From a virus (lineage: Duplodnaviria; Caudoviricetes), in IMG/VR virus record IMGVR_UViG_3300027779_000039, positions 1 through 53,139 of that record: DNA of 53,139 nucleotides; one strand, given 5' to 3'. The first letter of the stretch is position 1; every line of letters starts with the position of its first letter. The notes beneath the pieces are model-generated. The model did not search any database. It was not told where the DNA came from and was given only the letters and a program-made list of their open reading frames with translations. A program made the position numbers and the translations under genes. This document shows, one piece after another, positions 19,686 through 32,476 of this stretch.

Positions 19686-19985
19686 TTAACACTTCCACCT
19701 TCTTCTTGCTTGTCTAATACGAGAGTTAGGATCATTCTTAGTTTTAGCTGAACTATTCTTTAGTTGTCCTGCTGACCTAGCACAATAAGACTTCCTTCTC
19801 TTCGCTGCTTTACTACCTTTCTTTACTTTACCAGTAACTGCTGTCTTTAACTTAGAACCAGGATTAGCTTTACGATAAGCCTTGACCCCTTTCTTTGTCA
19901 TGCCTGCTCCAGACTTAGTAGGTCTATAGTTAGCCCCTTTACCTTTCGTAGTCTTTCGTATTGGTTTAGACGCTTTTCTTGGCAT
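19686..19985 (-). CDS. Highly basic conserved phage protein
   Basis: Start MPRKAS; RRKSYCARS...DPNSRIRQARRRWKC motif common in marine phages. Confidence 0.75.
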   Translation of the reverse strand: MPRKASKPIRKTTKGKGANYRPTKSGAGMTKKGVKAYRKANPGSKLKTAVTGKVKKGSKAAKRRKSYCARSAGQLKNSSAKTKNDPNSRIRQARRRWKC

Positions 19986-20148
19986 TGTTATCTCTATTGT
20001 TTTGGTTACTGTACCACCACACGAACGCAGCATTTAAAGGTAGAGTAGCAATAAAAATAAACCCATAATCTTTTAAAAGACTTACAAGACCTACATATAA
20101 ACTAACTGCACCCAGAATACATACTACAAACTTTATACTCTCAGTCAT
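19966..20148 (-). CDS. Small two-TM membrane protein
   Basis: 60 aa with two hydrophobic segments. Confidence 0.5.
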   Translation of the reverse strand: MTESIKFVVCILGAVSLYVGLVSLLKDYGFIFIATLPLNAAFVWWYSNQNNRDNNAKKSV

Positions 20149-20873: not shown

Positions 20874-21084
20874 CGTAGTTCTCCATTAGTACTATAGGAG
20901 TGTCTTCACCTATCCACGCACCTAGTATATTGAAGTCTATCCACTCAACAGACTCATCTTCTTTCATACCTTGTTGTATGAATACGTCTACTAACTTATC
21001 ATAATCGTACACAACTACAGTATCACAGCCACATCTATGACCTAGTCCCACAATAGCATCGTCACATCCAGTCCACTTTTTCAT
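20863..21084 (-). CDS. Conserved small acidic phage protein
   Basis: GxDDAIVG...VYDYDK...EWIDFNIxGAWxGExTP motif; AAGGAG RBS. Confidence 0.75.
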   Translation of the reverse strand: MKKWTGCDDAIVGLGHRCGCDTVVVYDYDKLVDVFIQQGMKEDESVEWIDFNILGAWIGEDTPIVLMENYDEH

Positions 21085-21103
21085 ATTTTTATCTCCTTAT
21101 AGT

Positions 21104-21132
21104 TTGACACATTGAACAAATCATGGTATAAC
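21104..21132 (+). promoter_or_regulatory. Sigma70-type promoter (antisense to local genes)
   Basis: TTGACA-17 bp-TATAAC with extended -10 TG. Confidence 0.6.
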
Positions 21133-21214
21133 TACGTTATCCCCCCTGGGGGGCTATATATATATACTAGGTATACACCAAATTAACACATAGTATATAC
21201 TAAGTAGGTACATA

Positions 21215-21661
21215 TTACTCATGTAGCCTATACTTCATATCACTAAGTGACTCACCTAGCTCTATATCTACATCATTTCTTTCATGTTCATACAATCTAT
21301 CTGCTACTCTATATAAATCTACAGATGTACCTATAGATTTAATGTTATTAGCTTTAGAACTTATGATTTCTACATTACTATTTACATATCCTTTATCTGG
21401 AACTATTCTATCCAAGGTAGGAGACTCTTTAGTAATGCCTTTCTTCTTATTATTCCAATCTAATTTAATCTCAGTGAAGTAAGGACACCTCTCTTTAACC
21501 AAAGGTATCAGTTCTTCCCATACAAGAGTACATGGTACTCCCTTCTTTAACGCCCTAGCCCTTGCCCTACGCACCATAGACTTTAGTTTGTAAGCTACAG
21601 GGTCTTCACGCAACTGTCGTTTCCTATAATCACGCATATATTGTACATTTCTTTTAACCAT
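21215..21661 (-). CDS. HNH / endonuclease VII-like nuclease
   Basis: RARxRA...CP...SPTLDRIVPDKGYVxxNVxIISxKANxIK motif. Confidence 0.8.
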   Translation of the reverse strand: MVKRNVQYMRDYRKRQLREDPVAYKLKSMVRRARARALKKGVPCTLVWEELIPLVKERCPYFTEIKLDWNNKKKGITKESPTLDRIVPDKGYVNSNVEIISSKANNIKSIGTSVDLYRVADRLYEHERNDVDIELGESLSDMKYRLHE

Positions 21662-21667
21662 TCGTAC

Positions 21668-21696
21668 ATTGTATTGAGTATATGAACGATTGTCAA
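21668..21696 (-). promoter_or_regulatory. Sigma70-type promoter at the head of the morphogenesis arm
   Basis: TTGACA-17 bp-TACAAT; ATG of the nuclease lies 7 nt downstream of the -10. Confidence 0.7.
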
Positions 21697-21828
21697 ACTA
21701 AGTAACTATGTATTCCTTAAATATATCTACATGTAGTATGCCAAACTAGGTAACACCCCCTAATTTATAATTTTATGCAGCATCCGTATACACTATACCC
21801 CCCGCAGGGCGGTGGTCATACATACCCC

Positions 21829-22210
21829 GTAGATAAGCGTTTAAACTCAGTGGGTACTGTGTGGCAAAAATGCAACAAAATGATAGTATAATGATAGTTT
21901 TTAGAACGGTTCTAAACTAGGTAGTGTAACATTTTAGCAACTGTGTGTATAATGCAACACTATTTGCGGGGGAATGGGAAATAATAAAAATTATTAATAT
22001 ATTATAAGGGTTTAAACGGTCATACTATTTTAAATCAATTTTAAGAGCCATACAGGACAATTTCTTTAAATGGCTACCCACCTATTCAGAAATCTTAAAT
22101 CAAATTTGTTCTACTTTTGTTCTGATGAAGTTTGTTACATTCTGTTACATTATTTTACTAACTTTTTTTAATTATTTTCTTGACCGTTTAAACTTAAAAT
22201 GCTCTAATCA
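21829..22210. promoter_or_regulatory. Non-coding block A: cluster of host-TF-like boxes ending in the first early promoter
   Basis: ICE 21900-21916; Pho-like 21880-21897; LexA 22108-22122; TGTTACA repeats 22133-22149; 16-bp palindromes; 3x GTTTAAAC. Confidence 0.75.
22180..22208 (+). promoter_or_regulatory. Early sigma70 promoter P1
   Basis: TTGACC-17 bp-TCTAAT with TG extension; spacer contains GTTTAAAC. Confidence 0.6.
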
Positions 22211-22263
22211 AATCAAGGTTAAATCATTAGGGTTTAATCATCAACCAAATAAAGAGAGATTAG

Positions 22264-22623
22264 ATGACTAAATATAACTTAAAAAAAGAAACAGTCTTAA
22301 ACCCAAGTAAAATAAGACTATTAATACATACAGAAAGCCAATTAAAAAATGAACATGTTGGCGGGTGGATAGATGAAATTAAATTCATAAGCCATGAGGA
22401 CAATATATACTCAACTTCTAAAGTGTTCTTAACATATATTAAACCTATAAAAGTAAACGGGGATATGATTGGAAACATTAAATACGATTATGAAATTTCT
22501 CCAAATATGGATAGTGAAAGGGTTAGCTATCCAACTTTTGACGAAGGACACTTCACCTTAATAGAAGAAAAACATACTTTCCATGAAAAGGAAATTGAAG
22601 AACTAAACAACGATAATAAATAA
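22264..22623 (+). CDS. First early gene, hypothetical
   Basis: 119 aa ORF after P1, followed by a hairpin. Confidence 0.65.
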   Translation: MTKYNLKKETVLNPSKIRLLIHTESQLKNEHVGGWIDEIKFISHEDNIYSTSKVFLTYIKPIKVNGDMIGNIKYDYEISPNMDSERVSYPTFDEGHFTLIEEKHTFHEKEIEELNNDNK

Positions 22624-22677
22624 TTATTAATCGGGGAGGGTTTAAACGCTCTCCCCATCAACCACGAGGTAAATACA

Positions 22678-23349
22678 ATGAAAACAACTATTAAAACATA
22701 TGAAACATTAGGCGGTAAATTTGACGCTGTAATCAATGGCAATGAATACCAAATATTTAAGGGAAGTCGTGAAGAATACGGAACAAAAGGCTATAATGAA
22801 TTTCTAGTTCCTTACTTTAAAGAAAAAACGGGCTATGAATTACCGCCTGTTTTTGTATCAATGACTAGTAAATATAGAGAAAACGCTAAAGCATTGGCAG
22901 ACTGTACCACGTATTCAGATAGAATAGAAATATCTTTTAATGCTCATAAAGTTAAAGGTGAGACTGTAGAAGATACCCTTAGATTTTGGGATATTATGGT
23001 ACATGAGGGAATACATGCTTGCGGAATTGGTGGACATAAAAAAGATTTTGCAGACATAGGAAAAAAACTAGGCTTAACGGGTAGCGGTGAAAATAATAAT
23101 ACTTGGACAGCTACAATCTCAACCCCTCAATTAGATGAAACAATATTAAAAACTATTGTAAATAAATTAGGGCTATATCCTCAACATGAATTCAAACAGC
23201 ATTCAAAGAAAAAAGAAGCCGTAAGAAATATTAAAATAGAATGCTCTAATGATTGTGGATATTCTCACCGCTCAAGTATGAAAAATTTTAACATGCTAAC
23301 TAATACCACGTGCGGTGCATGTGGCGAGGGTGAACTAATAACCGCTTAA
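22678..23349 (+). CDS. SprT-like zinc metalloprotease with C-terminal zinc ribbon
   Basis: HEGIH (HExxH) then GHKKDF; CSNDC...CGAC; GAGGT RBS. Confidence 0.75.
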   Translation: MKTTIKTYETLGGKFDAVINGNEYQIFKGSREEYGTKGYNEFLVPYFKEKTGYELPPVFVSMTSKYRENAKALADCTTYSDRIEISFNAHKVKGETVEDTLRFWDIMVHEGIHACGIGGHKKDFADIGKKLGLTGSGENNNTWTATISTPQLDETILKTIVNKLGLYPQHEFKQHSKKKEAVRNIKIECSNDCGYSHRSSMKNFNMLTNTTCGACGEGELITA

Positions 23350-23363
23350 ATTAAATCAACAAG

Positions 23364-23391
23364 GGGGTAGTTTAAACGCTACCCCTATTTT
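23364..23391 (+). terminator. Hairpin/terminator with GTTTAAAC at its apex
   Basis: GGGGTAG-TTTAAACG-CTACCCC-TATTTT. Confidence 0.55.
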
Positions 23392-23409
23392 AAAATAAGG
23401 ATTAATACA

Positions 23410-23613
23410 ATGAAAACAATACAATTAAAATATAAAGAAAGTTATGGTAATAAAAGATTTTACCCTGACTGTGACTATTCACAAAACCTTTTACAATTTG
23501 TAAGCTATAATAAAAAATGTTTTACACTTGAGGAGTACCAAGTTCTAAAAGGTTGCCTAGGTTTTGATGTAATAATTAATAATGATATAGAGGAGGGTTT
23601 AAACGGTGAGTAA
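23410..23613 (+). CDS. Early hypothetical protein
   Basis: 67 aa; KxSYGNxRFYP motif; AAGGA RBS. Confidence 0.7.
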   Translation: MKTIQLKYKESYGNKRFYPDCDYSQNLLQFVSYNKKCFTLEEYQVLKGCLGFDVIINNDIEEGLNGE

Positions 23614-23704
23614 CACAACGACAGAAGCAACGACAACACAAAAAATAATTTGTATAATGTCCTTAATCTTTTCAATAATTTATTTTTTATTTTTAAGATA
23701 GGTA

Positions 23705-23733
23705 TTGACAACAACGAATTAAAAAATTAATAT
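23705..23733 (+). promoter_or_regulatory. Early sigma70 promoter P2
   Basis: TTGACA-17 bp-TAATAT preceded by an A/T tract. Confidence 0.6.
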
Positions 23734-23759
23734 AAACTAATAACAACGAGGTAAATAAA

Positions 23760-24146
23760 ATGACTAAAATAAAAACAATAAGAGATAATAGCGGTACTGA
23801 TTACGACGGTACTATTGATGAGCCGTTTAGACAACGAAGGGTATTTGAACCGAAAAATAAAATAAGATTTCTTGGGACGACTAAAACATGGCGGGATAAG
23901 ATAAACGGTCAGACGTATTTTTCAACTAACGTTGAAGACATTGAGCGAGATGTTAATTACCTTTTCCCTATTACCAACGGCTATGGTGACCAATCAGAGT
24001 ATAACGTCAAGAGGGCGTTAGAGATTGACGACAGCGAGATAAGATTTATTAAAATTCCTAATTGTAAAAAGTCAGAAGTTAAAGAACACGGACAAGGACA
24101 AAAGGAAAATTACTTTTCCGACTTAGGATATTACTACCAAGATTAA
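23760..24146 (+). CDS. Early hypothetical protein
   Basis: 128 aa; WRDKINGxTYFS...YGDQ motif; GAGGT RBS. Confidence 0.7.
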   Translation: MTKIKTIRDNSGTDYDGTIDEPFRQRRVFEPKNKIRFLGTTKTWRDKINGQTYFSTNVEDIERDVNYLFPITNGYGDQSEYNVKRALEIDDSEIRFIKIPNCKKSEVKEHGQGQKENYFSDLGYYYQD

Positions 24147-24177
24147 ACAGGTAAGCGTTTAAACAGTTACCTCCCCC

Positions 24178-24217
24178 TCCCCTCTAGTGTTATGGTTGGC
24201 ACTAGGGGGGTTTTTTT
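24178..24217 (+). terminator. Rho-independent terminator
   Basis: CCCCTCTAGTG...CACTAGGGGGG followed by T7. Confidence 0.85.
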
Positions 24218-24219
24218 GT

Positions 24220-24870
24220 GCCTAAAATTCTAGGCGTTTAAACGGACAGACTACCTCATTAAATCTTAGGCGTTTAAACGGGCAGATTATGACAGTAATA
24301 ATGATAGTATCGTGATAGTTTTTGTTCTCCTTTTGTTCTATGTATATATCAGAGAGTTTAAACGAGGTGTGTATAAGTGTTGTATTTATACCACGTTGTA
24401 TTTATGCAACAGAAATTAAGTGTTGTATTTATATCACGTTGTAAATATATCACGTTGTATTTATGCAACACAGATAGATTAGAATAGTTCTAAAGTATAG
24501 TTGCGAATGATTCTTAGAATAGTTCTAAAGTATAGATTAGAATAATTCTAAAGTAGATAAGCGTTTAAACGTTCTGTTACAATCTGTTACAATAATTTAT
24601 TAAAGTAGTTATTTTAGGGGTTTACAGGTTTTAACGGTCATAGAGCGTCATACAGACGATTTAAGCCTTTTGGCTACGCTAGTATCTAAAAATCCTAAAT
24701 CAAATTTGTTCTCTCTTTGTTCTCTTTTTTCCCTATATACATTATATATATAAAAAAACATTTTTTACTGAGCGTTTAAACGACTGATAAAGTTTGTTAC
24801 ATTGTGTTACAATTCTTTACCGAAAATAATTTATTTTTTTGTTGACGGGTTTATTTAAAAATGCAAAAAT
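24220..24870. promoter_or_regulatory. Non-coding block B: dense tandem array of host-TF-like boxes ending in early promoter P3
   Basis: 5x GTTTAAAC, Pho-like triplet, 2x LexA, 5x 16-bp palindrome, 3x ICE, Fur-like, 2x TGTTACA pairs, TTGACG at 24842. Confidence 0.8.
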
Positions 24871-24917
24871 ATAAACACAGTCAATAATGATTGCAAATTT
24901 TTAGAGGTAAAAATAAA

Positions 24918-25184
24918 ATGATTAAAATATATGAACATGATAAAAAAGTATTTAATATGAGAAAAGAAATAAACATAAATAAATATAAAGCTGAAGAAGG
25001 CGAGGTAAAAGAGTATCAAGAATTTTTTGTAGAACTTGACGCAAAAGAGATACAGACACTTTGTCAGTTAATAGGTTTAACAATGAACAAAGGAATAGAG
25101 TTGGAAAACTTATACAAAAAATTATCAGACTTTAATAATCATACTAATCAAGAAGATTGTAGGCTTGAGTTATACACAGGCTAA
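24918..25184 (+). CDS. Early hypothetical protein
   Basis: GAGGT RBS before MIKIYE (downstream of the track start). Confidence 0.65.
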   Translation: MIKIYEHDKKVFNMRKEININKYKAEEGEVKEYQEFFVELDAKEIQTLCQLIGLTMNKGIELENLYKKLSDFNNHTNQEDCRLELYTG

Positions 25185-25210
25185 CTGTTTAAACGAGGAG
25201 GAGAAATAAA

Positions 25211-25465
25211 ATGTTTATAATAAATCAAACTATGGGTAAAACAATCTCATATAGAAATTGGGGAATAACAACCACAATTCGTAAAGGTAAAAAATACTGG
25301 ATAATTGTGGAGGATTGTTTCGGTCAGTATGAAGAATATTGGCAATTAATTGACACATTAAAACAAGCTAAAAATTTAATAGATTTTTATGAAGAAAAAA
25401 AGAAACTTAATGCTGATGGTTATGAAGAAGAGGAAGTTTTAGAGTTAGACTGGTTGGTGGAATAA
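25211..25465 (+). CDS. Early hypothetical protein
   Basis: 84 aa; GAGGAG RBS. Confidence 0.65.
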   Translation: MFIINQTMGKTISYRNWGITTTIRKGKKYWIIVEDCFGQYEEYWQLIDTLKQAKNLIDFYEEKKKLNADGYEEEEVLELDWLVE

Positions 25466-25466
25466 A

Positions 25467-25892
25467 ATGTTAAAATCTAAAAAATTAAAATTTAAAAAAT
25501 TACCATATGAAGCAAGTTATAAAACTTTGTTAAAAAGATTTCCTGAAATTAATATTGACCAAGATGATGATTTGGGTGATGAAACTTTTCACAAAGCCAT
25601 GAATGGTGCAAAGCCTTATTGGGTTGATATAAATGGACATTTTTATGAAAGATACGGTTTGTGTTGGGATAATGATTGTCCTGTGGCAGGATATTCACAT
25701 ATTGTATGGGGTAGTGATAATAGAGATAGTCATGTCCAAATTTGTGCAAAGTTTATATATTTAATTACAGAACATTTTAAAGATTGTCATTTTATTACAC
25801 CAAGAGACATTGTTGATTGGGGTGTAGCCCATAAGCCTATAAGTGATGAAGAAAGATATTGGACAGATTATTACGAAAATATTGGAAAGTAG
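25467..25892 (+). CDS. Early hypothetical protein
   Basis: 141 aa, tiled. Confidence 0.65.
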   Translation: MLKSKKLKFKKLPYEASYKTLLKRFPEINIDQDDDLGDETFHKAMNGAKPYWVDINGHFYERYGLCWDNDCPVAGYSHIVWGSDNRDSHVQICAKFIYLITEHFKDCHFITPRDIVDWGVAHKPISDEERYWTDYYENIGK

Positions 25893-25915
25893 TTTAAACA
25901 ACGAGGAGAAATAAA

Positions 25916-26284
25916 ATGAAAAGTTTAATAGAAACAATACTACAAACAGCAGTAGATAAGGGCTATGAGTATGCTCTAATAGAGCCATACGACAGAACAA
26001 CAGAACTTAAAAGAACTAATGATGTATCGTTAGGTTTTGCAAATGCAAAAAATAAATGTCAAGGCATACATAATTATGACGAGATTATTATAGAGTTTTG
26101 GCACAAGGAAGAACACATGGGCAATCTTTATTGGACTAATGGGAACGATGACGCAGAACAAGTTTCTGATTACCATTGTAGATTAGATGACGAAGATAAT
26201 TTAGGTCTTGACACTATAATAAAACAATGGGAAAAAGACTTATTAAAAATAACACAACCCAATAATTCTGAAGCATGGAACTAA
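25916..26284 (+). CDS. Early hypothetical protein
   Basis: 122 aa; GAGGAG RBS. Confidence 0.7.
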   Translation: MKSLIETILQTAVDKGYEYALIEPYDRTTELKRTNDVSLGFANAKNKCQGIHNYDEIIIEFWHKEEHMGNLYWTNGNDDAEQVSDYHCRLDDEDNLGLDTIIKQWEKDLLKITQPNNSEAWN

Positions 26285-26307
26285 GGGTTTAAACGAGGAA
26301 AAGAATA

Positions 26308-26559
26308 ATGAGAAAGGCTAAATTTATAGAACTACAATATACAACACACGCTAGTTTAGACTTAGGGGAGGAGGGTATAAACCCTGATGACATTAAATCT
26401 ACATTCTTTAAGTGGGGTATGGCAGACATAGAACTTAAAGACGGGACTAAGCACACTATACATCTTAATCACCATGAGGTAGACTGTAAGTACCACGAGA
26501 AGGGGGGTGTCTATGATGATGATTACGAAAAAATTGAAGTGGATTGGTTTGAAGAGTAA
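26308..26559 (+). CDS. Early acidic hypothetical protein
   Basis: 83 aa; GAGGA RBS. Confidence 0.7.
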   Translation: MRKAKFIELQYTTHASLDLGEEGINPDDIKSTFFKWGMADIELKDGTKHTIHLNHHEVDCKYHEKGGVYDDDYEKIEVDWFEE

Positions 26560-26582
26560 GAGTTTAAACGAGGAGAAGGATA

Positions 26583-26732
26583 ATGGATAAAGAGTGGCAG
26601 ACATTTATAGAAGAAGTCTATGAGATAGCTTTTGGAGACAACGCCTTTAACAGAGGATTTGATTCAGAAGAAGTCGTAACTAAACTAAAAGAATTTTCAG
26701 ACAACGCACACAAATGGGAGGAGAACGTTTAA
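26583..26732 (+). CDS. 49-aa early protein (not in ORF track)
   Basis: MDKEWQTFIEEVYEIAFGDNA...; GAGGAG RBS; stop lies inside a GTTTAAAC. Confidence 0.65.
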   Translation: MDKEWQTFIEEVYEIAFGDNAFNRGFDSEEVVTKLKEFSDNAHKWEENV

Positions 26733-26749
26733 ACGATATGAGTAAAGTA

Positions 26750-26803
26750 TGTTACATGGTGTTACAAAACTTTACTTGCATTATACTAATACTAATATAA
26801 AGT
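26750..26803 (+). promoter_or_regulatory. Promoter with upstream TGTTACA-N3-TGTTACA repeat
   Basis: Repeat 26750-26766; TTGCAT-16 bp-TAAAGT. Confidence 0.45.
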
Positions 26804-26826
26804 CAAATTAACAACGGAGAAATAAA

Positions 26827-27156
26827 ATGAATATATTTAAAAAACTATTTAGTAAGGAAGCAGACTTTAGTGGAGAAGGTTATTCTGAGCCTAGAGATAA
26901 GTATAGACTAGGTAGACAAGCAGTTAAGGTCTATAACTATATGCACAACAACGGGTGGAAGAGTTTAAACGCCATAGCTAAAGCTACTGGAGAACCTTCA
27001 CCATCTATATCAGCACAGCTTAGAAACTTTAGAAAGCCTAGCTTTCAACCTGTAGACGCTATCTATGAAGTAGAGAAGAGATATGTACCTAAAGGGGTAT
27101 GGGAATATAAGTTGATAGTAGTGCCTAATAAAACTATGTTTAAGAAGGTTATATAA
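26827..27156 (+). CDS. Winged helix-turn-helix DNA-binding protein
   Basis: KVYNYMxxxxWKSLxAIAxxTGxPxPSISAQLRNFRK helix pattern, then beta wing (VEKR..GVWEYKL). Confidence 0.7.
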   Translation: MNIFKKLFSKEADFSGEGYSEPRDKYRLGRQAVKVYNYMHNNGWKSLNAIAKATGEPSPSISAQLRNFRKPSFQPVDAIYEVEKRYVPKGVWEYKLIVVPNKTMFKKVI

Positions 27157-27447
27157 GGAGTTAGGAAAGAATTAATTTGGTTGGGAAAGGCGGTGAGAGT
27201 CCGTGGTGTAACCCTTAAACAAAGGAGAAAACCCATTAAAAGTATTCCCCAAGAGATTACCTATCAATGCCAAGTTATAAAAAATTATAGTACCCATTGT
27301 CTTAGATACATTATTTCGTTAAGTTGAGGGACATTGTCTTCAATGCAGAGAGGATACAGAGGCTGAGGTTGAGACTCGTATAATGGTGGGCTAAGTTAGT
27401 AGTTAAAACAGTTGCATGCCTAGACTACAAGCTATAAAATAAATAAC
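27157..27447 (+). ncRNA. Candidate structured non-coding RNA
   Basis: About 290-nt gap in a gene-dense arm; T-loop-like hairpin GCGG-TGAGAGT-CCGT and several long-range stems. Confidence 0.4.
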
Positions 27448-27470
27448 GTTTAAACGCATAGGAGAATAAA

Positions 27471-27629
27471 ATGCAATTAATTAAACCAAATACAAGATTT
27501 TATACAAAGAGTACGCCTAGATGGTTAAGAGAATTATGGGGGTATCATTCACACGATAGTAAGCCCGTTACAATGCCTAAGTATAAGTTTATGGAGAAAT
27601 ACCTTGACAGAGAAGAAGACACCAGATAA
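27471..27629 (+). CDS. 52-aa early protein (not in ORF track)
   Basis: AGGAG RBS; MQLIKPNTRFY... Confidence 0.6.
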   Translation: MQLIKPNTRFYTKSTPRWLRELWGYHSHDSKPVTMPKYKFMEKYLDREEDTR

Positions 27630-27735
27630 GCCTAGAGTAGTAAGAGAGTTGCAAGGAACTTACACAAGAGTAAAAGAAGATAAGACTAAGTACAATAGAA
27701 AACGTTTAAACAATGAGGAGAAAGATGATGAGTAA
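27604..27735 (+). CDS. 43-aa peptide with DKTKYNRK motif (not in ORF track)
   Basis: TTG start after GGAG; MTEKKTPDKPRVVRELQGTYTRVKEDKTKYNRKRL... Confidence 0.45.
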   Translation: MTEKKTPDKPRVVRELQGTYTRVKEDKTKYNRKRLNNEEKDDE

Positions 27736-27880
27736 AGAAAAATTAACAATGGGAGAACTACTAGACAGGCTAGACGCAGAGTTTTATGACGTAGATTTAA
27801 CAACGCATGACAGTCCTACAAAAGGAACAGTAGCAGTAGTACATTTTTATGAGGATAAACTTGATGAGGAGGAAGAATAA
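27725..27880 (+). CDS. 51-aa acidic early protein (not in ORF track)
   Basis: GAGGAG RBS; MMSKEKLTMGELLDRLD... Confidence 0.6.
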   Translation: MMSKEKLTMGELLDRLDAEFYDVDLTTHDSPTKGTVAVVHFYEDKLDEEEE

Positions 27881-28059
27881 TGGCACAGTTTAGTATAAGT
27901 TTTAGTTTAACAAGAGACAATGACTTAAAAAGTGATGATGAGTCGTGGTTTGATAAAGAACATATATCTAATGAAATTAAATCATGGTTAGAGGATTTAG
28001 ATTTTAAGGTTGAGGCAATAGAAATAAAGGATAAAAATGAAGTACGTTTATATTATTAG
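27880..28059 (+). CDS. 59-aa acidic early protein (not in ORF track)
   Basis: TAATG coupling; MAQFSISFSLTRD... Confidence 0.6.
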   Translation: MAQFSISFSLTRDNDLKSDDESWFDKEHISNEIKSWLEDLDFKVEAIEIKDKNEVRLYY

Positions 28060-28099
28060 AGGATTTAGATTTTAAGGTTGAGGCAATAGAAATAAAGGA
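27988..28099 (+). repeat. Perfect 44-bp direct repeat (27988-28031 and 28056-28099)
   Basis: TTAGAGGATTTAGATTTTAAGGTTGAGGCAATAGAAATAAAGGA twice. Confidence 0.9.
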
Positions 28100-28189
28100 G
28101 AAAGATGATGAGTAATTGGCAGATATTTGAATTATCAATAGGCATAGTATGTATTGCTATATTGTGGAACATATAAAAGGAGAAGAATA

Positions 28190-28357
28190 ATGAACGCCAA
28201 CGATTTAAGTAGTGCTTTGTGCGATATGTATGACGTTAAACGTGCCTTGAGAACGGAAGTTCTGTTAGCACCCAAAGATAATGAAGGTACTGAAACTACC
28301 ATTGGTGAATGTATTGATGACGTTATTGAATTTCTTGAAACTTTGGAGGGGATATAA
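28190..28357 (+). CDS. Small hypothetical protein
   Basis: AAGGAG RBS before MNANDL. Confidence 0.6.
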   Translation: MNANDLSSALCDMYDVKRALRTEVLLAPKDNEGTETTIGECIDDVIEFLETLEGI

Positions 28358-28551
28358 TGGACATAGTATTAAATGAAGATTACTGGGATTGTGAATGCTT
28401 ATCAAATTACATTCATAGTAAAAAAAAATTAGAGTGTAGTAAATGTAATTCTTTAGCAGATGAACAACCTGATAGCCGACAAGAGGAGGTAAAATATTAC
28501 AAACCCATGACTTTAAAAGAAAGAAACTACAGAAAGAAACATAATTTATAG
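28357..28551 (+). CDS. Small Cys-rich (zinc ribbon-like) protein
   Basis: YWDCEC..NYIH..CSKC..QPDSR motif. Confidence 0.7.
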   Translation: MDIVLNEDYWDCECLSNYIHSKKKLECSKCNSLADEQPDSRQEEVKYYKPMTLKERNYRKKHNL

Positions 28552-28561
28552 GAGAAGTATA

Positions 28562-28714
28562 ATGGCTAAAAAACAGATACAAGGAAAGAATAGAAAGAAG
28601 ACTACTAAAGCTATGTCTCATACGGGAGGCAACAGTAGACCATTAAAAGATATATACTTTGATGAGGTATCACACAAATGGTTTAAACGCCCTATAAAAA
28701 TAGAGGAGGCATAA
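28562..28714 (+). CDS. 50-aa basic protein (not in ORF track)
   Basis: AGGAG RBS; MAKKQIQGKNRKK... Confidence 0.6.
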   Translation: MAKKQIQGKNRKKTTKAMSHTGGNSRPLKDIYFDEVSHKWFKRPIKIEEA

Positions 28715-28715
28715 G

Positions 28716-28913
28716 ATGAGTACATACAGAGACATAATAAGAAAGATACTATACTTTGAAGAACTAGGGACATTGAGCCTAGACCAAGAGATAACAGAAG
28801 AAAGTTTAAACGACCTAAGAGAAGGTATGATACATTTCGCACCTAACAACGTGCCTTACAATGATGACAGGCAGATGAACATAGACGATTACCTAGATAA
28901 AAAAGGAACATAA
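28716..28913 (+). CDS. Hypothetical protein
   Basis: 65 aa; GAGGAGG RBS. Confidence 0.65.
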   Translation: MSTYRDIIRKILYFEELGTLSLDQEITEESLNDLREGMIHFAPNNVPYNDDRQMNIDDYLDKKGT

Positions 28914-28914
28914 C

Positions 28915-29208
28915 ATGGACAAGAAAGCAATACTAATGGCAATAGCCAGTAAAGACGATATAGAGCATATAACAGACGCTATAATGAAGTTTGTAGATAA
29001 GACTTCAGCAGAGGTAGGAGTAGATAGAGAAGACGTTGCTACAAGTTCTCTAGTAGCTTTACTATTATACTATGTAAAGAACTCTTCAGAAGATAAGGCA
29101 GTAGCCGTAGGTAATTTAATGAGTTTATTGAGTAGTGTGTTTATAATAACTTCTACTGCTACTAATTGGGTAGAAGTACAGGAAGAACCTAGTGGGGGTA
29201 TTAACTAG
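28915..29208 (+). CDS. Hypothetical protein
   Basis: 97 aa; AAGGA RBS. Confidence 0.65.
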   Translation: MDKKAILMAIASKDDIEHITDAIMKFVDKTSAEVGVDREDVATSSLVALLLYYVKNSSEDKAVAVGNLMSLLSSVFIITSTATNWVEVQEEPSGGIN

Positions 29209-29291
29209 GTTATATATAGTGTAGCCCCCCACGGGAGATGCGTGTAGCATATAACCTAATTTTAATGTTGTCAAATTATAAGGAGATAAAA

Positions 29292-29483
29292 ATGGCAGAT
29301 ATAAATATACAGACAGAAGAAATAGTAAATGAAGTTTTAGACGAAGCAAGAGATACCATTATCCAAAGGGGAGGTCAGGAGTTGGAGTGGTCATACCATG
29401 CGGACACAGACTTAAAAAAGATTGTTGTAGTGTTTGCTACTAACAAAGAAGATGACGAAGAACTATTAACGAAAGGAATGTGA
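29292..29483 (+). CDS. Small acidic protein
   Basis: AAGGAG RBS before MADINIQ. Confidence 0.65.
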   Translation: MADINIQTEEIVNEVLDEARDTIIQRGGQELEWSYHADTDLKKIVVVFATNKEDDEELLTKGM

Positions 29484-29484
29484 T

Positions 29485-29748
29485 ATGAGAAATACGTTTA
29501 GTAACTTTTCTGAACACAAGCAGTATCTTGTAGGCTTAATACACCGATTACTGTTTAGTGTAAAAAGAAAATCTAGGACAGTAAAGTACATAAAAAAATA
29601 TCTTAGGTATGAGGTTGAAGAATACAAAGAGTTAGATAATAGTAGTATTCACGATTTTGATGATATTATATGTGCGGGTAGACGAGAATTAGCAGAAAGT
29701 TTATTAGAAGAATTAGAGAGGTGGGAACATGGTCAAAAAAGATTCTGA
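29485..29748 (+). CDS. Hypothetical protein
   Basis: 87 aa, tiled. Confidence 0.6.
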   Translation: MRNTFSNFSEHKQYLVGLIHRLLFSVKRKSRTVKYIKKYLRYEVEEYKELDNSSIHDFDDIICAGRRELAESLLEELERWEHGQKRF

Positions 29749-29968
29749 AGAAACTATGTATACGATAGCAAGACAAGACCTTGCCCGCATAGAAGAATAT
29801 GAGGTGCAATGGATAGAGTTCTTTGGTTGTTGGGTAAGGTTAGAAAGGTCGTCAGAGACAGGGCAATCCGTTATGATTACTGTACACAAAGATGAAGATT
29901 CAGATTACATAGGTAAGTTAGTAGTTAATAATGAGTGTTTAAACCCCAAGGAGATAGCAGATGAGTAA
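29729..29968 (+). CDS. Hypothetical protein
   Basis: 79 aa; GAGGT RBS. Confidence 0.6.
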   Translation: MVKKDSEETMYTIARQDLARIEEYEVQWIEFFGCWVRLERSSETGQSVMITVHKDEDSDYIGKLVVNNECLNPKEIADE

Positions 29969-30185
29969 AAAATTAATATATACTTTTCACGGAGAGAATC
30001 ATCATTGTGATGAGGTAGAGTTAGATAGTTTTTTAGATAGCTTTAATAACCATGCACCCGAATTTTTTGAGAACATTAGAGCATTCTCTTCTAAAAAAGA
30101 TAGAGATACTTTTGCTACTAGAGAGACAGAAAGAGACGCAGAAGTTACTGAACGTTTAAACGCTATACTAAACAGAGGATTTTAA
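29961..30185 (+). CDS. Hypothetical protein
   Basis: 74 aa; AAGGAG RBS. Confidence 0.6.
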   Translation: MSKKLIYTFHGENHHCDEVELDSFLDSFNNHAPEFFENIRAFSSKKDRDTFATRETERDAEVTERLNAILNRGF

Positions 30186-30977
30186 TTGAGGGCTACAGAA
30201 AGACTTCATCAAGCTATACAAGAATTAAATTTAGAAGATGAGGCTACACAGAGACTTGATTGTGTCGAGTGTGGGAAAAGAAATACCCTTACTGTAACTA
30301 GGATAGACGGGAAGATATTATGGAATTGTTATTCTGCTTCTTGTAGTATTGGAGGAGTGACTGATGCAGAATACTCTAGGGAAGATGTTACTAACAAAGT
30401 ACATCTCGTACCTAAAGAAAAAGAAGACAAGCCTTTTGTAGTACCTGATTATTTTGTAAGAGATGTAACGAGAAGTAGTGACTGTTTAAACTACATCAAT
30501 GAATTTAATTTTATGTCTGTTTATGATAAGAACCCAGAAAGATTTATGTATGATGTCAAAGGAGATAGATTAGTTTTTATGACAGTATATGATGGTGTTG
30601 TTGTGGGTGCAGTTGGAAGGGCATTGAAGTACGGGATTAAATGGTACAGGTACGATACTTGTCACACGCCTTTTATTATACAGGGCGGAGACTCTATTGC
30701 TGTAGTTGTAGAAGATTGTACTTCAGCATGTGTTGTAGCCACTGTGGGAACAGGGATAGCCTTGTTAGGTACTAATCTTTTGACTGAGCATATACAATAT
30801 CTAAAACCTTATAAGAACCTTGTAGTAGCTTTAGATAGAGACGCTACAGATAAAGCCATTGACATACAACGTAAGTTAGCTATTCATGTAGACAGATGCA
30901 AAGTTCTTATTTTGGAAAGGGACTTGAAGTACGAGAACGAAACAAGTATTAAAAATTTATTAGGAGAGATGATGTAA
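30186..30977 (+). CDS. DNA primase (Zn finger + TOPRIM)
   Basis: CVEC...NCYSASC zinc-binding domain; VVVEDCTSA, ALLGT, VALDRDA TOPRIM motifs. Confidence 0.9.
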   Translation: MRATERLHQAIQELNLEDEATQRLDCVECGKRNTLTVTRIDGKILWNCYSASCSIGGVTDAEYSREDVTNKVHLVPKEKEDKPFVVPDYFVRDVTRSSDCLNYINEFNFMSVYDKNPERFMYDVKGDRLVFMTVYDGVVVGAVGRALKYGIKWYRYDTCHTPFIIQGGDSIAVVVEDCTSACVVATVGTGIALLGTNLLTEHIQYLKPYKNLVVALDRDATDKAIDIQRKLAIHVDRCKVLILERDLKYENETSIKNLLGEMM

Positions 30978-31222
30978 TGGCATTTAGAAAAAAGATTATA
31001 CCAAGAAATTCTAAGAATAGAGGAATAAGATTAGGAGTAGATTTTAATGACATAGTAGATGATGAGACTGCAGGAGATTGGTCGCAGATATGTAGTGACT
31101 GCCAGAGGAAGCATAATTTTCACAAAGCTAAGTTAGATGAATATAACATTGACAACGAGACTATATGCGGTATAAGAAGATGCGACAACATAGCAAGTTT
31201 GTTTATTACTTTTGATAGATAG
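30977..31222 (+). CDS. Small Cys-containing protein
   Basis: WSQICSDC...ICGIRRC. Confidence 0.65.
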   Translation: MAFRKKIIPRNSKNRGIRLGVDFNDIVDDETAGDWSQICSDCQRKHNFHKAKLDEYNIDNETICGIRRCDNIASLFITFDR

Positions 31223-31246
31223 CGTTTAAACATAGAGGAAAATAAT

Positions 31247-32476
31247 ATGACAAGTATGCCTAAAGAAATATTAAAAAAGTATGCGACTAACCATGACTTT
31301 CACAATCAAGTAGTAGATAGATTAGATGACACCATGTTTTCTAATGGGTTGTTAAAAGTTAAACATGCGGTAGATGACGCATATAAAAAGTATAAGGACA
31401 AAGACCTAACGTTGACTGATATTGCTATGAATTATATAGCTACGTTCCCGTCAATAACAGTAAGCCAGAAAGATTCTATAATGGCAGACTTTGAGGTAAT
31501 TAAAAAACTAAACGATATAGATGATGATATAGCATTTGACATGGTCTATAAGATGTCTCTTCAATCTCAGGCACAGAAAGTTGCTCAACAGTCTATAAAG
31601 ATAATGCAAGGCGACCACTACGACTCTACCTCGGTAATCAGGGCTACTGAAAAACTTAGGTCTATGGCGGATAGAGGGAAAGAAAGCGAGCTTAGAGCAT
31701 CTAACGACATGGAAGAATTGTTTGATGAGTTAGACCAAGAACATCACTACACTTTTCATATACCTAGTTTAAACGACAGGGTAGGAGGAATAAGCAAGGG
31801 AATGTTTGTTGTTGTAGGAGCTAGACCTAACGTAGGTAAGTCAGGGTTTGCTCATTCTATGATAGCCTCTCCAAAAGGTTTCTTAGACCAAGGTGCTAAA
31901 TGTATTATGTTTACTAATGAGGAGAAGGCTCAAAGACATATGTTAAGAATGGTTACTGCCTCATGCCAAGAAAGAATATCTTATGTAAAAGAATACAAGC
32001 ATAGGTTTGTAGATAAATGGAAAAAGAAGTCAGAGAATTTACATATATTTGATTCTAGTAGCTTGACATTCGGAGAGATTGAGGCAATAGTGGAGAAAGA
32101 AAAGCCTGATGTAATAGTCATAGATATTTTAGATAAGACTCAGATAGGCGGAACATTTGCTAGAGACGACCAACGACTAACGAGTTTATACGCAGAGAGT
32201 AGAGACTTAGCTAAAAGACAGGAGTGTGTTGTGTTTGGTATGTGCCAGTTATCCGCAGAAGCATCAGGTAAGATTATATTAAACGATTCTATGCTGTCAG
32301 GCTCAAGAACAGGTAAGGCAGGTGAGGCGGATTTAATTGTTTTAATTGGTAAGGAAGAGACAGAAGAAGGTGATACCAATATGAGATGGATTAACATAGT
32401 AAAGAATAAAATTACAGGTCAGCATGGAAACTTTGCAGTTATGTTTGACCATTTAACAGCATCTTACATGGACTAA
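31247..32476 (+). CDS. Replicative SF4 (DnaB-like) helicase
   Basis: Walker A GARPNVGKS; NEE; VIVIDILD; QLS; KNKITG. Confidence 0.92.
   Translation: MTSMPKEILKKYATNHDFHNQVVDRLDDTMFSNGLLKVKHAVDDAYKKYKDKDLTLTDIAMNYIATFPSITVSQKDSIMADFEVIKKLNDIDDDIAFDMVYKMSLQSQAQKVAQQSIKIMQGDHYDSTSVIRATEKLRSMADRGKESELRASNDMEELFDELDQEHHYTFHIPSLNDRVGGISKGMFVVVGARPNVGKSGFAHSMIASPKGFLDQGAKCIMFTNEEKAQRHMLRMVTASCQERISYVKEYKHRFVDKWKKKSENLHIFDSSSLTFGEIEAIVEKEKPDVIVIDILDKTQIGGTFARDDQRLTSLYAESRDLAKRQECVVFGMCQLSAEASGKIILNDSMLSGSRTGKAGEADLIVLIGKEETEEGDTNMRWINIVKNKITGQHGNFAVMFDHLTASYMD

What the first reader, a model, noticed from the sequence alone, without database searches (positions are those of the whole stretch)
21829..24870. 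Candidate new system: non-coding arrays of host transcription-factor boxes at the start of the early arm
Seen: two gene-free blocks (21829-22210 and 24220-24870) consist almost entirely of abutting multi-copy motifs of at least six classes, and most classes occur in both blocks. Established: several match global-regulator sites (Irr ICE TTTAGAA-N3-TTCTAAA, alphaproteobacterial LexA GTTC-N7-GTTC, Pho box, Fur 7-1-7, OmpR-family repeats). Many copies lie hundreds of bp from any promoter, and block B sits behind a strong terminator, which is hard to explain as ordinary promoter control. Inference, three options: (a) a DNA sponge that titrates iron, SOS and phosphate regulators once the genome replicates; (b) a landing pad where abundant host proteins coat, protect or ratchet in the first-injected DNA; (c) a multi-input sensor of host state gating early transcription.
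Basis: partly seen in the sequence, partly recalled or inferred. Interest (0 to 1): 0.93.

Follow-up and report, generated by a model that had tools for sequence, protein, structure and literature searches.

The report
Host regulator boxes in phage control regions
Two gene-free stretches at the start of a marine phage's early genes carry binding-site sequences identical to those that SAR11-type bacteria use for their DNA-damage (LexA) and iron (Irr) regulators, mixed with phage-specific repeats, so the phage probably reads, and may disturb, its host's stress state.

Summary
The window is a near-complete HMO-2011-type podovirus. Both blocks are gene-free and far more repetitive than shuffles (42% against 8% covered by repeated 10-mers).

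Two of the claimed host matches pass a direct test against SAR11-type genomes:
- The three GTTC-N7-GTTC boxes are alphaproteobacterial LexA operators. One is identical in 15 of 15 bases to the operator in the host umuD promoter.
- The four TTAGAA-N3-TTCTAA palindromes equal the Irr/ICE boxes upstream of host rubrerythrin and peroxiredoxin.

The Fur claim fails and the Pho claim is weak. The TGTTACA repeat, the 16-bp iterons and GTTTAAAC have no host counterpart and look phage-specific.

- Block A is the divergent late/early junction.
- Block B is an expanded partial copy, behind a terminator and ahead of the next early promoter.
- Natural variants change spacers and unit number, not box cores.
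- The boxes recur in the window's low-GC clades but in 0 of 7 cultured roseophage/SAR116 relatives.

Best reading: a composite control region that co-opts host LexA and Irr. This is a new variant of a known kind (CtrA, LexA and Spo0A co-option). Titration of the regulators remains possible. No binding or expression data exist.

The parts
21668..21696 (-). Leftward sigma-70-like promoter TTGACA-17-TACAAT, facing the late/structural arm
   Evidence: 11 of 12 matches. The TTGACA is kept in the 76%-TerL clade.
21808..21830 (.). Conserved GC-rich junction element (GGCGGTGGTCATA...); role unknown
   Evidence: found in 9 of 80 TerL loci.
21839..21846 (.). GTTTAAAC copy (context GTAGATAAGC-GTTTAAAC, repeated at 24553-24570)
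21880..21897 (-). Direct repeat CTATCAT-N4-CTATCAT (TGATAGT on the + strand); Pho-box-like with 2 mismatches
   Evidence: No host counterpart.
21900..21916 (.). Perfect Irr/ICE palindrome TTTAGAA-CGG-TTCTAAA
   Evidence: In L005 only the spacer changes.
21926..21953 (+). Promoter-like site GTAACA-16-TATAAT, 10 bp after the ICE box
   Evidence: 10 of 12. A natural variant T>G at 21948.
22010..22017 (.). GTTTAAAC copy
22108..22122 (+). LexA operator GTTCTACTTTTGTTC
   Evidence: Identical to the umuD-promoter operator of SAR11-type genomes. The exact word is in 7 of 301 sampled Alphaproteobacteria, and the reversed control in 0.
22133..22149 (+). TGTTACA-N3-TGTTACA direct repeat, 30 nt upstream of the -35
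   Evidence: In L005 and L101 the same repeat sits 9 nt from the -35. Absent from host-type genomes.
22180..22208 (+). Early promoter as read by me: TTGACC-17-TCTAAT with TG; GTTTAAAC (22186-22193) lies in its spacer
   Evidence: Sequence. The scan did not list it because position 2 of the -10 is C.
22264..24146 (+). First early operon of four genes (119, 223, 67 and 128 aa); the 223-aa product is a putative SprT-like metalloprotease
   Evidence: No Pfam family. phrog_6361. Atlas lead to SprT-like clusters.
23705..23733 (+). Internal promoter-like site TTGACA-17-TAATAT
24179..24210 (+). Intrinsic terminator: 14-bp stem followed by a T run
24236..24243 (.). GTTTAAAC copy (TAGGC-GTTTAAAC-GGRCAGA unit 1)
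24272..24279 (.). GTTTAAAC copy (unit 2)
24301..24318 (-). Second CTATCAC-N4-CTATCAT repeat
24324..24338 (+). LexA-type box GTTCTCCTTTTGTTC
   Evidence: One base differs from the host umuD operator.
24356..24363 (.). GTTTAAAC copy
24377..24472 (+). Five 16-bp iterons (GTTGTAWWTATRYCAC), two of them ending in TGCAACA
   Evidence: One extra unit in run X3. Not enriched in host-type genomes: 42 sites against 70 for the control.
24478..24494 (.). ICE box ATTAGAA-TAG-TTCTAAA
   Evidence: The 15-mer is identical to the host peroxiredoxin doublet.
24513..24529 (.). ICE box
   Evidence: This 35-bp unit is missing in runs X3 and X6.
24536..24552 (.). ICE box ATTAGAA-TAA-TTCTAAA
   Evidence: The natural variant A>G at 24545 falls in the N3 spacer.
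24563..24570 (.). GTTTAAAC copy
24575..24591 (+). TGTTACA-N3-TGTTACA repeat; its second unit reads TGtTACAAT, an extended -10-like word
24708..24722 (+). LexA-type box GTTCTCTCTTTGTTC, with the same AAATCAAATTT flank as box A
   Evidence: (family D8).
24774..24781 (.). GTTTAAAC copy
24795..24811 (+). TGTTACA-N3-TGTTACA repeat, 30 nt upstream of the -35
24842..24870 (+). Early promoter TTGACG-17-AAAAAT with TG, ahead of the gene that starts at 24918
26750..26766 (+). Fourth TGTTACA-N3-TGTTACA repeat, outside the finding

Best explanation
The blocks are the control regions of the phage's early arm.

Layout:
- Block A is the divergent junction between the leftward late/structural arm and the rightward early arm.
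- Block B is a partly duplicated, expanded copy. It lies behind a terminator and in front of the next early promoter.

Each block mixes three layers:
1. Sigma-70-type promoters.
2. Operators of two host regulators: three alphaproteobacterial LexA boxes and four Irr/ICE boxes.
3. Phage-lineage-specific repeats that probably bind phage proteins, such as an activator and perhaps a replication initiator. These are the TGTTACA direct repeat kept in helical phase with early promoters, the 16-bp iterons, the CTATCAT repeat and GTTTAAAC.

Proposed working (inferred): host LexA and Irr bind the incoming genome. They tune the firing of the early and late promoters, or of an origin, to the host's DNA-damage and iron/haem/oxidative state.

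Shown:
- The repeats are real.
- The boxes are identical to host operators.
- Box cores are conserved while spacers and unit numbers vary.

Inferred: binding, the sign of the regulation, and the host (a SAR11-type alphaproteobacterium).
For: Phage type and host range
- HMO-2011-type by DNA polymerase (about 40% identity). 29 window ORFs match the SAR11 phage HTVC033P.
- All 11 cultured members of the group infect Alphaproteobacteria (PMC9038755, passages).

LexA
- 5 of 5 SAR11-type genomes encode LexA and carry GAAC-N7-GAAC directly upstream of lexA.
- GTTCTACTTTTGTTC lies between the -35 and the -10 of a Peptidase_S24 (umuD-like) gene in G002, G004, G005 and G013. GTTCTATTAATGTTC lies before recA.
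- The phage box at 22108 equals the umuD operator in 15 of 15 bases.
- The exact word occurs in 7 of 301 sampled alphaproteobacterial genomes, and its reversed control in 0 of 301.

Irr
- The ICE consensus is TTTAGAA-N3-TTCTAAA, and P. ubique has Irr with a predicted rubrerythrin target (PMC1698941 and PMC2864753, passages).
- In the five genomes the word occurs 4-6 times each (control 0-2). It stands singly before rubrerythrin and doubly beside a Redoxin gene.
- The phage has 4 copies in 53 kb.
- ICE doublets in cell genomes are alphaproteobacterial in 79 of 120 rows, by my reading of the record titles.

The phage itself encodes neither regulator
- No FUR or LexA DNA-binding family in six frames.

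Constraint on the boxes
- Relatives at 89% identity change only the spacers.
- 0 of 32 listed natural substitutions in the blocks hit a specified core base, where about 8 are expected. One falls in an ICE spacer.

Natural controls
- Pelagiphages HTVC027P and HTVC022P have 0 ICE sites and 1-2 LexA-like words each.

Recurrence
- ICE in 5, plus one site with 1 mismatch, and GTTC-N7-GTTC in 3, of 9 junction-bearing relatives.
- A near-ICE box about 50 bp upstream of the early promoter of HTVC033P.

Phase of the TGTTACA repeat
- The repeat-to--35 distance is 30 nt in both blocks and 9 nt in L005 and L101, a difference of two helical turns.
Against: - There are no binding, transcript or start-site data. 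No RNA run holds the stretch.
- The host is not established.
- The LexA boxes centre about 65 and 127 bp upstream of the nearest predicted -35. The block-B ICE boxes lie about 290-360 bp upstream. These are not classical repressor positions.
- 0 of 7 cultured HMO-2011-type isolates (six roseophages and HMO-2011) carry an ICE site with at most 1 mismatch. Their GTTC-N7-GTTC count (12) does not exceed the control (16). The feature is therefore lineage-specific.
- 41 of 120 genome rows with ICE doublets are not alphaproteobacterial. One viral ICE-doublet lineage resembles Flavobacterium phages. The palindrome alone therefore does not name Irr.
- The promoter-like count in the region is only about 2 sd above shuffles.
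Confidence: 0.5

Rival explanations
1. Decoy or sponge. The boxes serve mainly to sequester LexA and Irr as the genome multiplies. This would de-repress the host SOS regulon (recA, umuDC) and the iron/oxidative regulon for the phage's benefit.
For: - The host regulons are tiny: 3-4 recurrent LexA operators and 4-6 ICE words per genome. A few tens of phage genomes would outnumber them (inference).
- The boxes lie far from predicted promoters.
- Unit number varies between natural strains.
- Infection of HTCC1062 by another pelagiphage raises recA, lexA, umuDC and irr (PMC12753301, passages).
Against: - That phage, HTVC027P, has 0 ICE sites and only 1 LexA-like word. Its effect therefore needs no sponge.
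- Seven boxes per genome is modest.
- In other phage lineages the ICE doublets sit directly at operon starts, as operators do.
- Nothing tested here separates this reading from ordinary regulation.
Confidence: 0.15
2. All motif classes, including the LexA-like and ICE-like ones, are operators or iterons for phage-encoded proteins. The likeness to host sites is coincidence or mimicry.
For: - Four classes have no host counterpart: the TGTTACA repeat, the iterons, the CTATCAT repeat and GTTTAAAC.
- About 40 early ORFs have no known function.
- ICE-like doublets also occur in phages and genomes outside the Alphaproteobacteria.
Against: - One box is identical in 15 of 15 bases, spacer included, to a conserved host SOS operator.
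- The ICE 15-mers are identical to host sites.
- The phage has no FUR or LexA DNA-binding domain.
- The 48 viral contigs with ICE doublets fall into at least 5 lineages with no shared neighbouring gene; the largest shared family covers 8 of 48.
Confidence: 0.13
3. Block B, and perhaps block A, is chiefly the replication origin. The iterons bind a phage initiator beside an AT-rich stretch, and LexA and Irr modulate origin firing rather than transcription.
For: - Five tandem 16-bp iterons whose number varies by whole units.
- An AT-rich run at 24728-24767.
- The cumulative GC-skew minimum lies at about 21-22 kb.
- Related words (GTTGYAWWTAT) recur in the junctions of the 76%-TerL clade and of HTVC033P.
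Against: - No initiator gene was identified.
- No DnaA or IHF words lie in the blocks.
- The skew change coincides with the switch in gene direction.
- The AT-rich run lies about 260 bp from the iterons.
Confidence: 0.1
4. Landing pad. Abundant host proteins coat, protect or pull in the first-injected DNA.
For: Only the position at the start of the early arm.
Against: - The physical genome ends are unknown; the record is linear without end repeats.
- LexA and Irr are low-abundance, specific regulators, not coating proteins (established knowledge).
- Block B is internal.
Confidence: 0.03

Closest known systems
CtrA-site arrays in large intergenic gaps and terminal repeats of alphaproteobacterial phages (Mascolo et al. 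2022, PMC9437464; passages read)
   Same: - Dense, positionally skewed clusters of host transcription-factor sites in non-coding regions of alphaproteobacterial phages.
- Independent evolution in several lineages, with turnover of sites between close relatives.
   Different: - Here the factors are LexA and Irr, not CtrA. TTAA-N7-TTAA is not enriched: 1 site in the blocks and 5 in the window.
- The sites are mixed with phage-specific repeats.
- The phage belongs to the HMO-2011 type.
- No EMSA data exist.
LexA co-option by phages and other mobile elements (Fornelos et al. 2016, as cited in PMC9437464; the examples CTX, 186 and GIL01 are recalled, not read)
   Same: Host SOS operators on a phage genome couple phage gene expression to DNA damage.
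   Different: - The known cases are mostly temperate phages with a box overlapping one promoter.
- Here no integrase or repressor was recognised among the 25 plus-arm ORFs and the large ORFs scanned.
- There are three boxes, 65 bp or more from the predicted -35 elements.
Irr / iron control element regulon of Alphaproteobacteria (Rudolph et al. 2006; Rodionov et al. 2006, PMC1698941)
   Same: The same 7-3-7 palindrome. The SAR11-type host sites before rubrerythrin and peroxiredoxin were confirmed here.
   Different: - The sites are on a virus.
- They are about 19 times denser than in the host genomes.
- They are arranged as a tandem array of 35- and 23-bp units.
- I found no report of ICE boxes on phages in two library searches.
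Spo0A sites of Bacillus phage phi29 (as cited in PMC9437464); NtcA and PhoB boxes of cyanophages (recalled)
   Same: A virulent phage carries several sites for a host global regulator that gate the lytic programme according to host physiology.
   Different: Different factors and hosts. Function has been shown there and not here.
Iteron-type origins (lambda ori, plasmid iterons; recalled)
   Same: Tandem 16-bp direct repeats whose number varies by whole units.
   Different: No initiator gene or adjacent unwinding element has been shown.

Membership tests
Alphaproteobacterial LexA operator | Direct repeat GTTC-N7-GTTC | tested here: met
   Three boxes in the blocks.
Alphaproteobacterial LexA operator | Same word used upstream of SOS genes in the candidate host lineage | tested here: met
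   - 15 of 15 bases identical to the umuD-promoter operator in G002, G004, G005 and G013.
- lexA and recA operators are of the same form.
- 7 of 301 sampled genomes hold the exact word, against 0 of 301 for the reversed control.
Alphaproteobacterial LexA operator | Overlaps or abuts a promoter that it represses | tested here: inconclusive
   The boxes centre 65 bp or more upstream of the predicted -35 elements. No transcript data.
Alphaproteobacterial LexA operator | Bound by LexA | not testable with these tools
   Needs EMSA or DAP-seq.
Irr iron control element (ICE) | Palindrome TTTAGAA-N3-TTCTAAA | tested here: met
   One perfect site and three at 13 of 14 bases, all in the blocks.
Irr iron control element (ICE) | Host lineage has Irr, with ICE before iron or oxidative-stress genes | tested here: met
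   - P. ubique has Irr (PMC2864753, PMC1698941; passages).
- ICE stands before rubrerythrin and beside a Redoxin gene in SAR11-type genomes.
Irr iron control element (ICE) | Specific to Irr-bearing hosts | tested here: inconclusive
   79 of 120 genome rows are alphaproteobacterial by title and 41 are not.
Irr iron control element (ICE) | Bound by Irr | not testable with these tools
   Needs EMSA or DAP-seq.
Fur box (7-1-7 TGATAAT-N-ATTATCA; motif recalled) | Inverted 7-1-7 match above chance in the blocks | tested here: not met
   12 sites with up to 3 mismatches against 9.4 expected. One lies in the blocks, in an AT run.
Pho box (CTGTCAT-N4-CTGTCAT; motif recalled) | Direct 7-bp repeats with an 11-bp period that match the consensus | tested here: inconclusive
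   Two copies with 2 and 3 mismatches.
Pho box (CTGTCAT-N4-CTGTCAT; motif recalled) | Counterpart sites in the host regulon | tested here: not met
   CTRTCAT-N4-CTRTCAT with up to 1 mismatch: 4 sites against 4 for the control in five genomes, all inside coding ORFs. The pst loci themselves were not examined.
OmpR/PhoB-type response-regulator site (TGTTACA-N3-TGTTACA) | Direct repeat with a 10-11 bp period upstream of a promoter | tested here: met
   - 3 of 4 copies precede sigma-70-like promoters.
- The spacing is 9 or 30 nt.
OmpR/PhoB-type response-regulator site (TGTTACA-N3-TGTTACA) | Host regulon uses the same word | tested here: not met
   0 exact sites and 2 with one mismatch in five SAR11-type genomes.
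Iteron-type replication origin | At least 3 tandem direct repeats of 15-22 bp | tested here: met
   Five 16-bp units, and six in run X3.
Iteron-type replication origin | Adjacent unwinding element and a cognate initiator gene | tested here: inconclusive
   An AT-rich run lies about 260 bp away. No initiator was recognised.
Host-factor site arrays of alphaproteobacterial phages (as for CtrA) | Skewed, intergenic clustering of high-quality host-factor sites | tested here: met
   All 4 ICE sites and 3 of 4 LexA-type words lie in 2.6% of the genome.

The most novel reading that the evidence does not exclude
The arrays are a trap for the host's two smallest stress regulons. Replicating phage DNA gathers the few LexA and Irr molecules of a streamlined SAR11-type cell onto the blocks. 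The first early operon, which lies between the two blocks, encodes a putative SprT-like protease of the DNA-dependent kind that removes DNA-bound proteins. Together these would switch on recA/umuDC and the iron/oxidative genes for the phage. ICE arrays in at least five unrelated marine phage lineages would then mark a widespread viral grip on bacterial iron sensing in the ocean.
Probability: 0.1. Interest if true: 0.85.

Novelty: new variant of a known kind. Interest (0 to 1): 0.62.

Why it matters
HMO-2011-type phages and pelagiphages are among the most abundant viruses in the sea, and their gene regulation is essentially undescribed. The two main papers on the group that I could search do not contain the word 'promoter'.

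Sequence-level evidence that such a phage carries its host's own SOS and iron-regulator operators gives a concrete, testable link between infection and two factors:
- iron limitation, a master variable of ocean productivity;
- DNA damage, for example by sunlight.

The scan of viral contigs shows ICE arrays in 48 contigs of several lineages. Use of Irr by phages may therefore be common and unreported. It would extend the known set of host regulators that phages co-opt (LexA, CtrA, Spo0A, NtcA, PhoB).

Tried and rejected
- Nucleotide search of 21000-26000 against cultured phages: no match.
- Rfam on 21500-25000: no family. tRNA scan: none.
- Pfam and PHROGs on 25 early-arm proteins and 2 leftward-arm proteins next to the junction: no DNA-binding family. 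PDB sequence search of the 223-aa protein: nothing useful.
- CtrA, DnaA, IHF and GANTC words are not enriched in the blocks.
- Fur 7-1-7: rejected.
- The TGATAGT repeat in host genomes: nothing recurrent. The tool's reversed control is void there, because the word is its own mirror image.
- LexA-like words near the ICE doublets of other viral contigs: 5 in 48 kb against 15 in 333 kb. Four of the five come from one lineage, so this is not a general pairing.
- The 64%-TerL clade has a higher GC content, and its GAAC-N7-GAAC hits lie in coding sequence.
- ORF 19686-20033 is 92% identical in protein to HTVC027P gp52 but only about 80% in DNA. It is a conserved small basic protein and not evidence of recent exchange or of the host.
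- No RNA holder was listed for the stretch, so nothing can be said about expression. The laid runs are contigs only, so there is no information on transcript starts.
- The taxonomy of genomes reached through loci is not shown by the tool. 'SAR11-type' therefore rests on one record title (Candidatus Pelagibacter MAG) and, for the others, on low GC, small size and shared gene neighbourhoods.
- PMC3725092, the HMO-2011 paper, is not held. Supplements of PMC9038755 (host predictions and subgroup lists) could not be seen and may bear on the host.

Full report
**What the window is.** The 53,139-base window is a whole IMG/VR virus record, linear, with a CheckV completeness of 94%.
- It is an HMO-2011-type podovirus. 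Its DNA polymerase is 38-42% identical to those of roseophages CRP-212 and CRP-3, pelagiphage HTVC033P and HMO-2011.
- 29 of its ORFs match HTVC033P.
- Capsid, portal and terminase genes lie on the minus strand from 49 to 21661. Primase, helicase, polymerase and ribonucleotide reductase genes lie on the plus strand from 22264 to about 41500.
- Block A (21662-22263) is therefore the divergent junction between the late and early arms, where cumulative GC skew is lowest.
- Overall GC is 35.0%. The published group paper treats the low-GC subgroups (31.9-35.4%) as likely pelagiphages, and all 11 cultured members infect Alphaproteobacteria (PMC9038755, passages).

**The observation.** Both blocks are free of credible genes, and a 14-bp-stem terminator at 24179-24210 precedes block B.
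- Exact repeated 10-mers cover 41.7% of the 1,373 bases, against 7.9 +/- 3.0% in 200 dinucleotide shuffles. Repeated 12-mers cover 23.8% against 0.7%. 'Almost entirely motifs' is thus too strong, but the repetitiveness is real.
- The motif classes are:
  - GTTTAAAC, 8 copies in the blocks;
  - TTAGAA-N3-TTCTAA, 1 copy in block A and 3 in block B;
  - GTTC-N7-GTTC with the longer form TTTGTTCT-N3-TTTGTTCT, 1 and 2 copies;
  - TGTTACA-N3-TGTTACA, 1 and 2 copies, plus one at 26750;
  - CTATCAT-N4-CTATCAT, 1 and 1 copy;
  - a 16-bp iteron, 5 copies, in block B only;
  - TGCAACA.
- 22071-22222 and 24671-24884 are 70-79% identical (families D1 and D8). The right part of block B is therefore a duplicate of the right part of block A, early promoter included.
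- Promoter-like sites found by the scan:
  - leftward TTGACA-17-TACAAT at 21696-21668;
  - rightward GTAACA-16-TATAAT at 21926-21953;
  - TTGACA-17-TAATAT at 23705-23733;
  - TTGACG-17-AAAAAT at 24842-24870.

  By my own reading there is also TTGACC-17-TCTAAT at 22180-22208.

**Test of the host-regulator claim: LexA.** A scan of bacterial genomes for ICE doublets gave me handles to five streamlined, low-GC alphaproteobacterial genomes. One is titled Candidatus Pelagibacter; the others are single-cell or metagenome assemblies of 1.0-1.6 Mb.
- All five encode LexA.
- All five carry GAAC-N7-GAAC between a TTGACT -35 and the lexA start.
- GTTCTACTTTTGTTC fills the spacer of a TTGAAA/TATAAT promoter of a 137-aa Peptidase_S24 (umuD-like) gene in three of them and in a further sampled genome.
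- GTTCTATTAATGTTC precedes recA.
- The phage box at 22108-22122 is the same 15-mer as the umuD operator, spacer included. The other two phage boxes differ from it at one and three positions.
- In 301 sampled alphaproteobacterial genomes the exact word occurs in 7 and its reversed control in none. In a 44%-GC genome it stands before lexA itself.

**Test of the host-regulator claim: Irr.** The ICE consensus is TTTAGAA-N3-TTCTAAA. P. ubique has Irr with one or two predicted sites, one of them at rubrerythrin (PMC1698941 and PMC2864753, passages).
- In the five genomes TTAGAA-N3-TTCTAA occurs 4-6 times each, against 0-2 for the control. It occurs once before a Rubrerythrin gene and twice in the divergent region beside a Redoxin/AhpC gene.
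- TTAGAATAGTTCTAA, present twice in block B, is the very word of that host doublet.
- The phage has 4 such sites in 53 kb, about 19 times the host density.
- The phage encodes no FUR-family and no LexA DNA-binding domain in any frame.
- Two other pelagiphages of the same GC content have no ICE site and only 1-2 LexA-like words.

**What is not host-derived.**
- TGTTACA-N3-TGTTACA: 0 exact and 2 one-mismatch sites in the five genomes.
- The iteron word is not enriched there: 42 sites against 70 for the control.
- The CTATCAT repeat has no recurrent counterpart, and the four near-matches lie inside genes.
- A classical Fur box is not present above chance.
- The TGTTACA repeat behaves like an upstream promoter element. 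In relative L101 it lies 9 nt before TGGACA-17-TATAGT and before TGGACT-17-TAAGGT. In L005 it lies 9 nt before the -35. In both blocks of the window it lies 30 nt before the -35, because of a 21-bp insertion, so the helical phase is kept.
- GTTTAAAC is a genome-wide feature of the early arm: 35 of its 38 copies lie between 21839 and 41508, often just before a ribosome-binding site but also inside genes. It is lineage-specific. There are 23 copies in a 93% relative, 13 and 6 in 82% and 81% relatives, and none in the 76%-TerL clade.

**Conservation and turnover.**
- Two contigs about 89% identical to the window keep every box of block A, while the ICE spacer (CGG to CCA) and the LexA spacer change.
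- Contigs from four other marine metagenomes show one extra 16-bp iteron, the loss of one 35-bp ICE unit, and 40 listed substitutions. Of these, 32 lie in the blocks. None hits a specified base of any core (about 8 expected), and one falls in an ICE spacer. Sixteen further rows were not shown, and the sites are not independent.
- Among the 80 TerL-anchored relatives, 9 hold the junction anchor. ICE is exact in 5 of them and has one mismatch in 1. GTTC-N7-GTTC is present in 3. Within the 76% clade one genome has the ICE box where another has none, and the reverse holds for the LexA box.
- HTVC033P has TTTAGAATCATTCTAtt about 50 bp before its early promoter.
- Against generality: six cultured roseophages and HMO-2011 have no ICE site with at most 1 mismatch, and their LexA-like words do not exceed the control.

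**ICE arrays elsewhere.**
- A scan of IMG/VR for two ICE words within 4-34 bp found 48 contigs with GC of 25-63%.
- Almost none share proteins with this phage.
- They fall into at least five groups with no common neighbouring gene; the largest shared family covers 8 of 48.
- The doublets usually sit at the head of an operon, in one group 17-66 bp before the terminase gene. That group's terminase is 60.6% identical to that of pelagiphage Baldr, and Baldr itself has one perfect site.
- One group weakly resembles Flavobacterium phages.
- 41 of the 120 genome rows with doublets are not alphaproteobacterial by title. The palindrome is therefore not exclusive to Irr hosts.

**Mechanism.** The best-supported reading is a composite control region. 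It combines host RNA polymerase promoters, phage-specific elements that probably bind phage proteins, and co-opted LexA and Irr operators that couple the programme to DNA damage and to iron/haem status.
- What argues for ordinary regulation is the operator-like placement of ICE doublets in other phages, and the ICE box 10 bp before the promoter-like site at 21926.
- What argues against a simple repressor model is the distance of the LexA boxes (65 and 127 bp) and of the block-B ICE boxes (about 290-360 bp) from the predicted -35 elements.
- A titration effect is quantitatively plausible because the host regulons are so small. The one relevant transcriptome shows SOS and irr genes up during HTVC027P infection (PMC12753301, passages). 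That phage, however, has no such boxes.
- An origin function for the iterons cannot be excluded.

**Comparison and novelty.** Co-option of host regulators by phages is established for LexA and for Spo0A (phi29). It is also established, as dense arrays in intergenic gaps of alphaproteobacterial phages, for CtrA (PMC9437464, passages).
- New here are the use of Irr/ICE boxes and their combination with LexA boxes and phage-specific repeats in a duplicated module. Their presence in an abundant, apparently lytic marine phage lineage is also new.
- Library searches for 'iron control element' with 'bacteriophage', and for 'pelagiphage' with 'LexA', returned no report of this (listings, plus passages of two papers).
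- The HMO-2011-type papers that I searched never mention promoters.
- I rate it a new variant of a known kind, with interest about 0.6.

Noticed in passing
window 21839-41508 (35 copies), plus 13774, 42169, 47136: GTTTAAAC occurs 38 times against 1.6 expected, almost only in the plus-strand early/replication arm. It often lies 3-12 nt before a ribosome-binding site or in the loop of a hairpin, but also inside genes. Its flanks are asymmetric (G favoured after it). Copy number falls quickly with relatedness: 23, 13, 6, 2, 0.
   Followed up: partly
window 22678-23349 (+): The largest protein of the first early operon has an HEGIH motif and a C-terminal Cys cluster. Language-model look-alikes are phage clusters partly annotated as SprT-like (score 0.97; PF10263 on 14-21% of members). 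Pfam and PDB sequence searches are blank.
   Followed up: partly
L107-L154 (48 IMG/VR contigs): Tandem or paired ICE-like palindromes (usually TTAGAAY-N-RTTCTAA) occur in at least five unrelated viral lineages with GC of 25-63%, mostly at operon starts. In one 43%-GC lineage three ICE boxes alternate with a second repeat (GGTTGTATCGCC).
   Followed up: partly
L160-L279 (genome contigs): ICE-like doublets also occur in Bacteroidota, Verrucomicrobiota, Bacillota and Bdellovibrionota genomes (41 of 120 rows by title). This suggests other regulators with a similar 7-1-7 site.
   Followed up: no
window 22150-22179 compared with L005: A 21-bp insertion or deletion between the TGTTACA repeat and the -35 keeps the helical phase. 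Both blocks of the window have 30 nt there, and relatives have 9 nt.
   Followed up: partly
L005, L008, L009, L012, L013, L098, L101: Contigs of close relatives tend to end in or beside blocks A and B, as expected if the duplicated modules break short-read assemblies.
   Followed up: no
window 21780-21830; L030, L046, L048 junctions; HTVC033P 51600-51900: A GC-rich element (CCCCCC...GGCGGTGGTCATA...CCCC) is conserved at the junction across clades. It could mark a packaging site or a genome end.
   Followed up: no
L030 and L046, about 5300-5900 upstream of TerL: The 76%-TerL clade lacks GTTTAAAC. It has another recurring word before its early genes (TAGATA..TGTTCC..TTTGTG..).
   Followed up: no
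window 19686-20033 (-): A small basic protein is 92% identical to gp52 of the unrelated pelagiphage HTVC027P, while the DNA is only about 80% identical.
   Followed up: partly
window 21215-21661 (-): The first gene of the leftward arm looks like an HNH-type endonuclease by eye (recalled motif). It has no Pfam match, even at E up to 10.
   Followed up: partly
window 35257-35271: A fourth GTTC-N7-GTTC word (GTTCTGTATTTGTTC) lies inside the 290-aa gene at 34938-35810.
   Followed up: no
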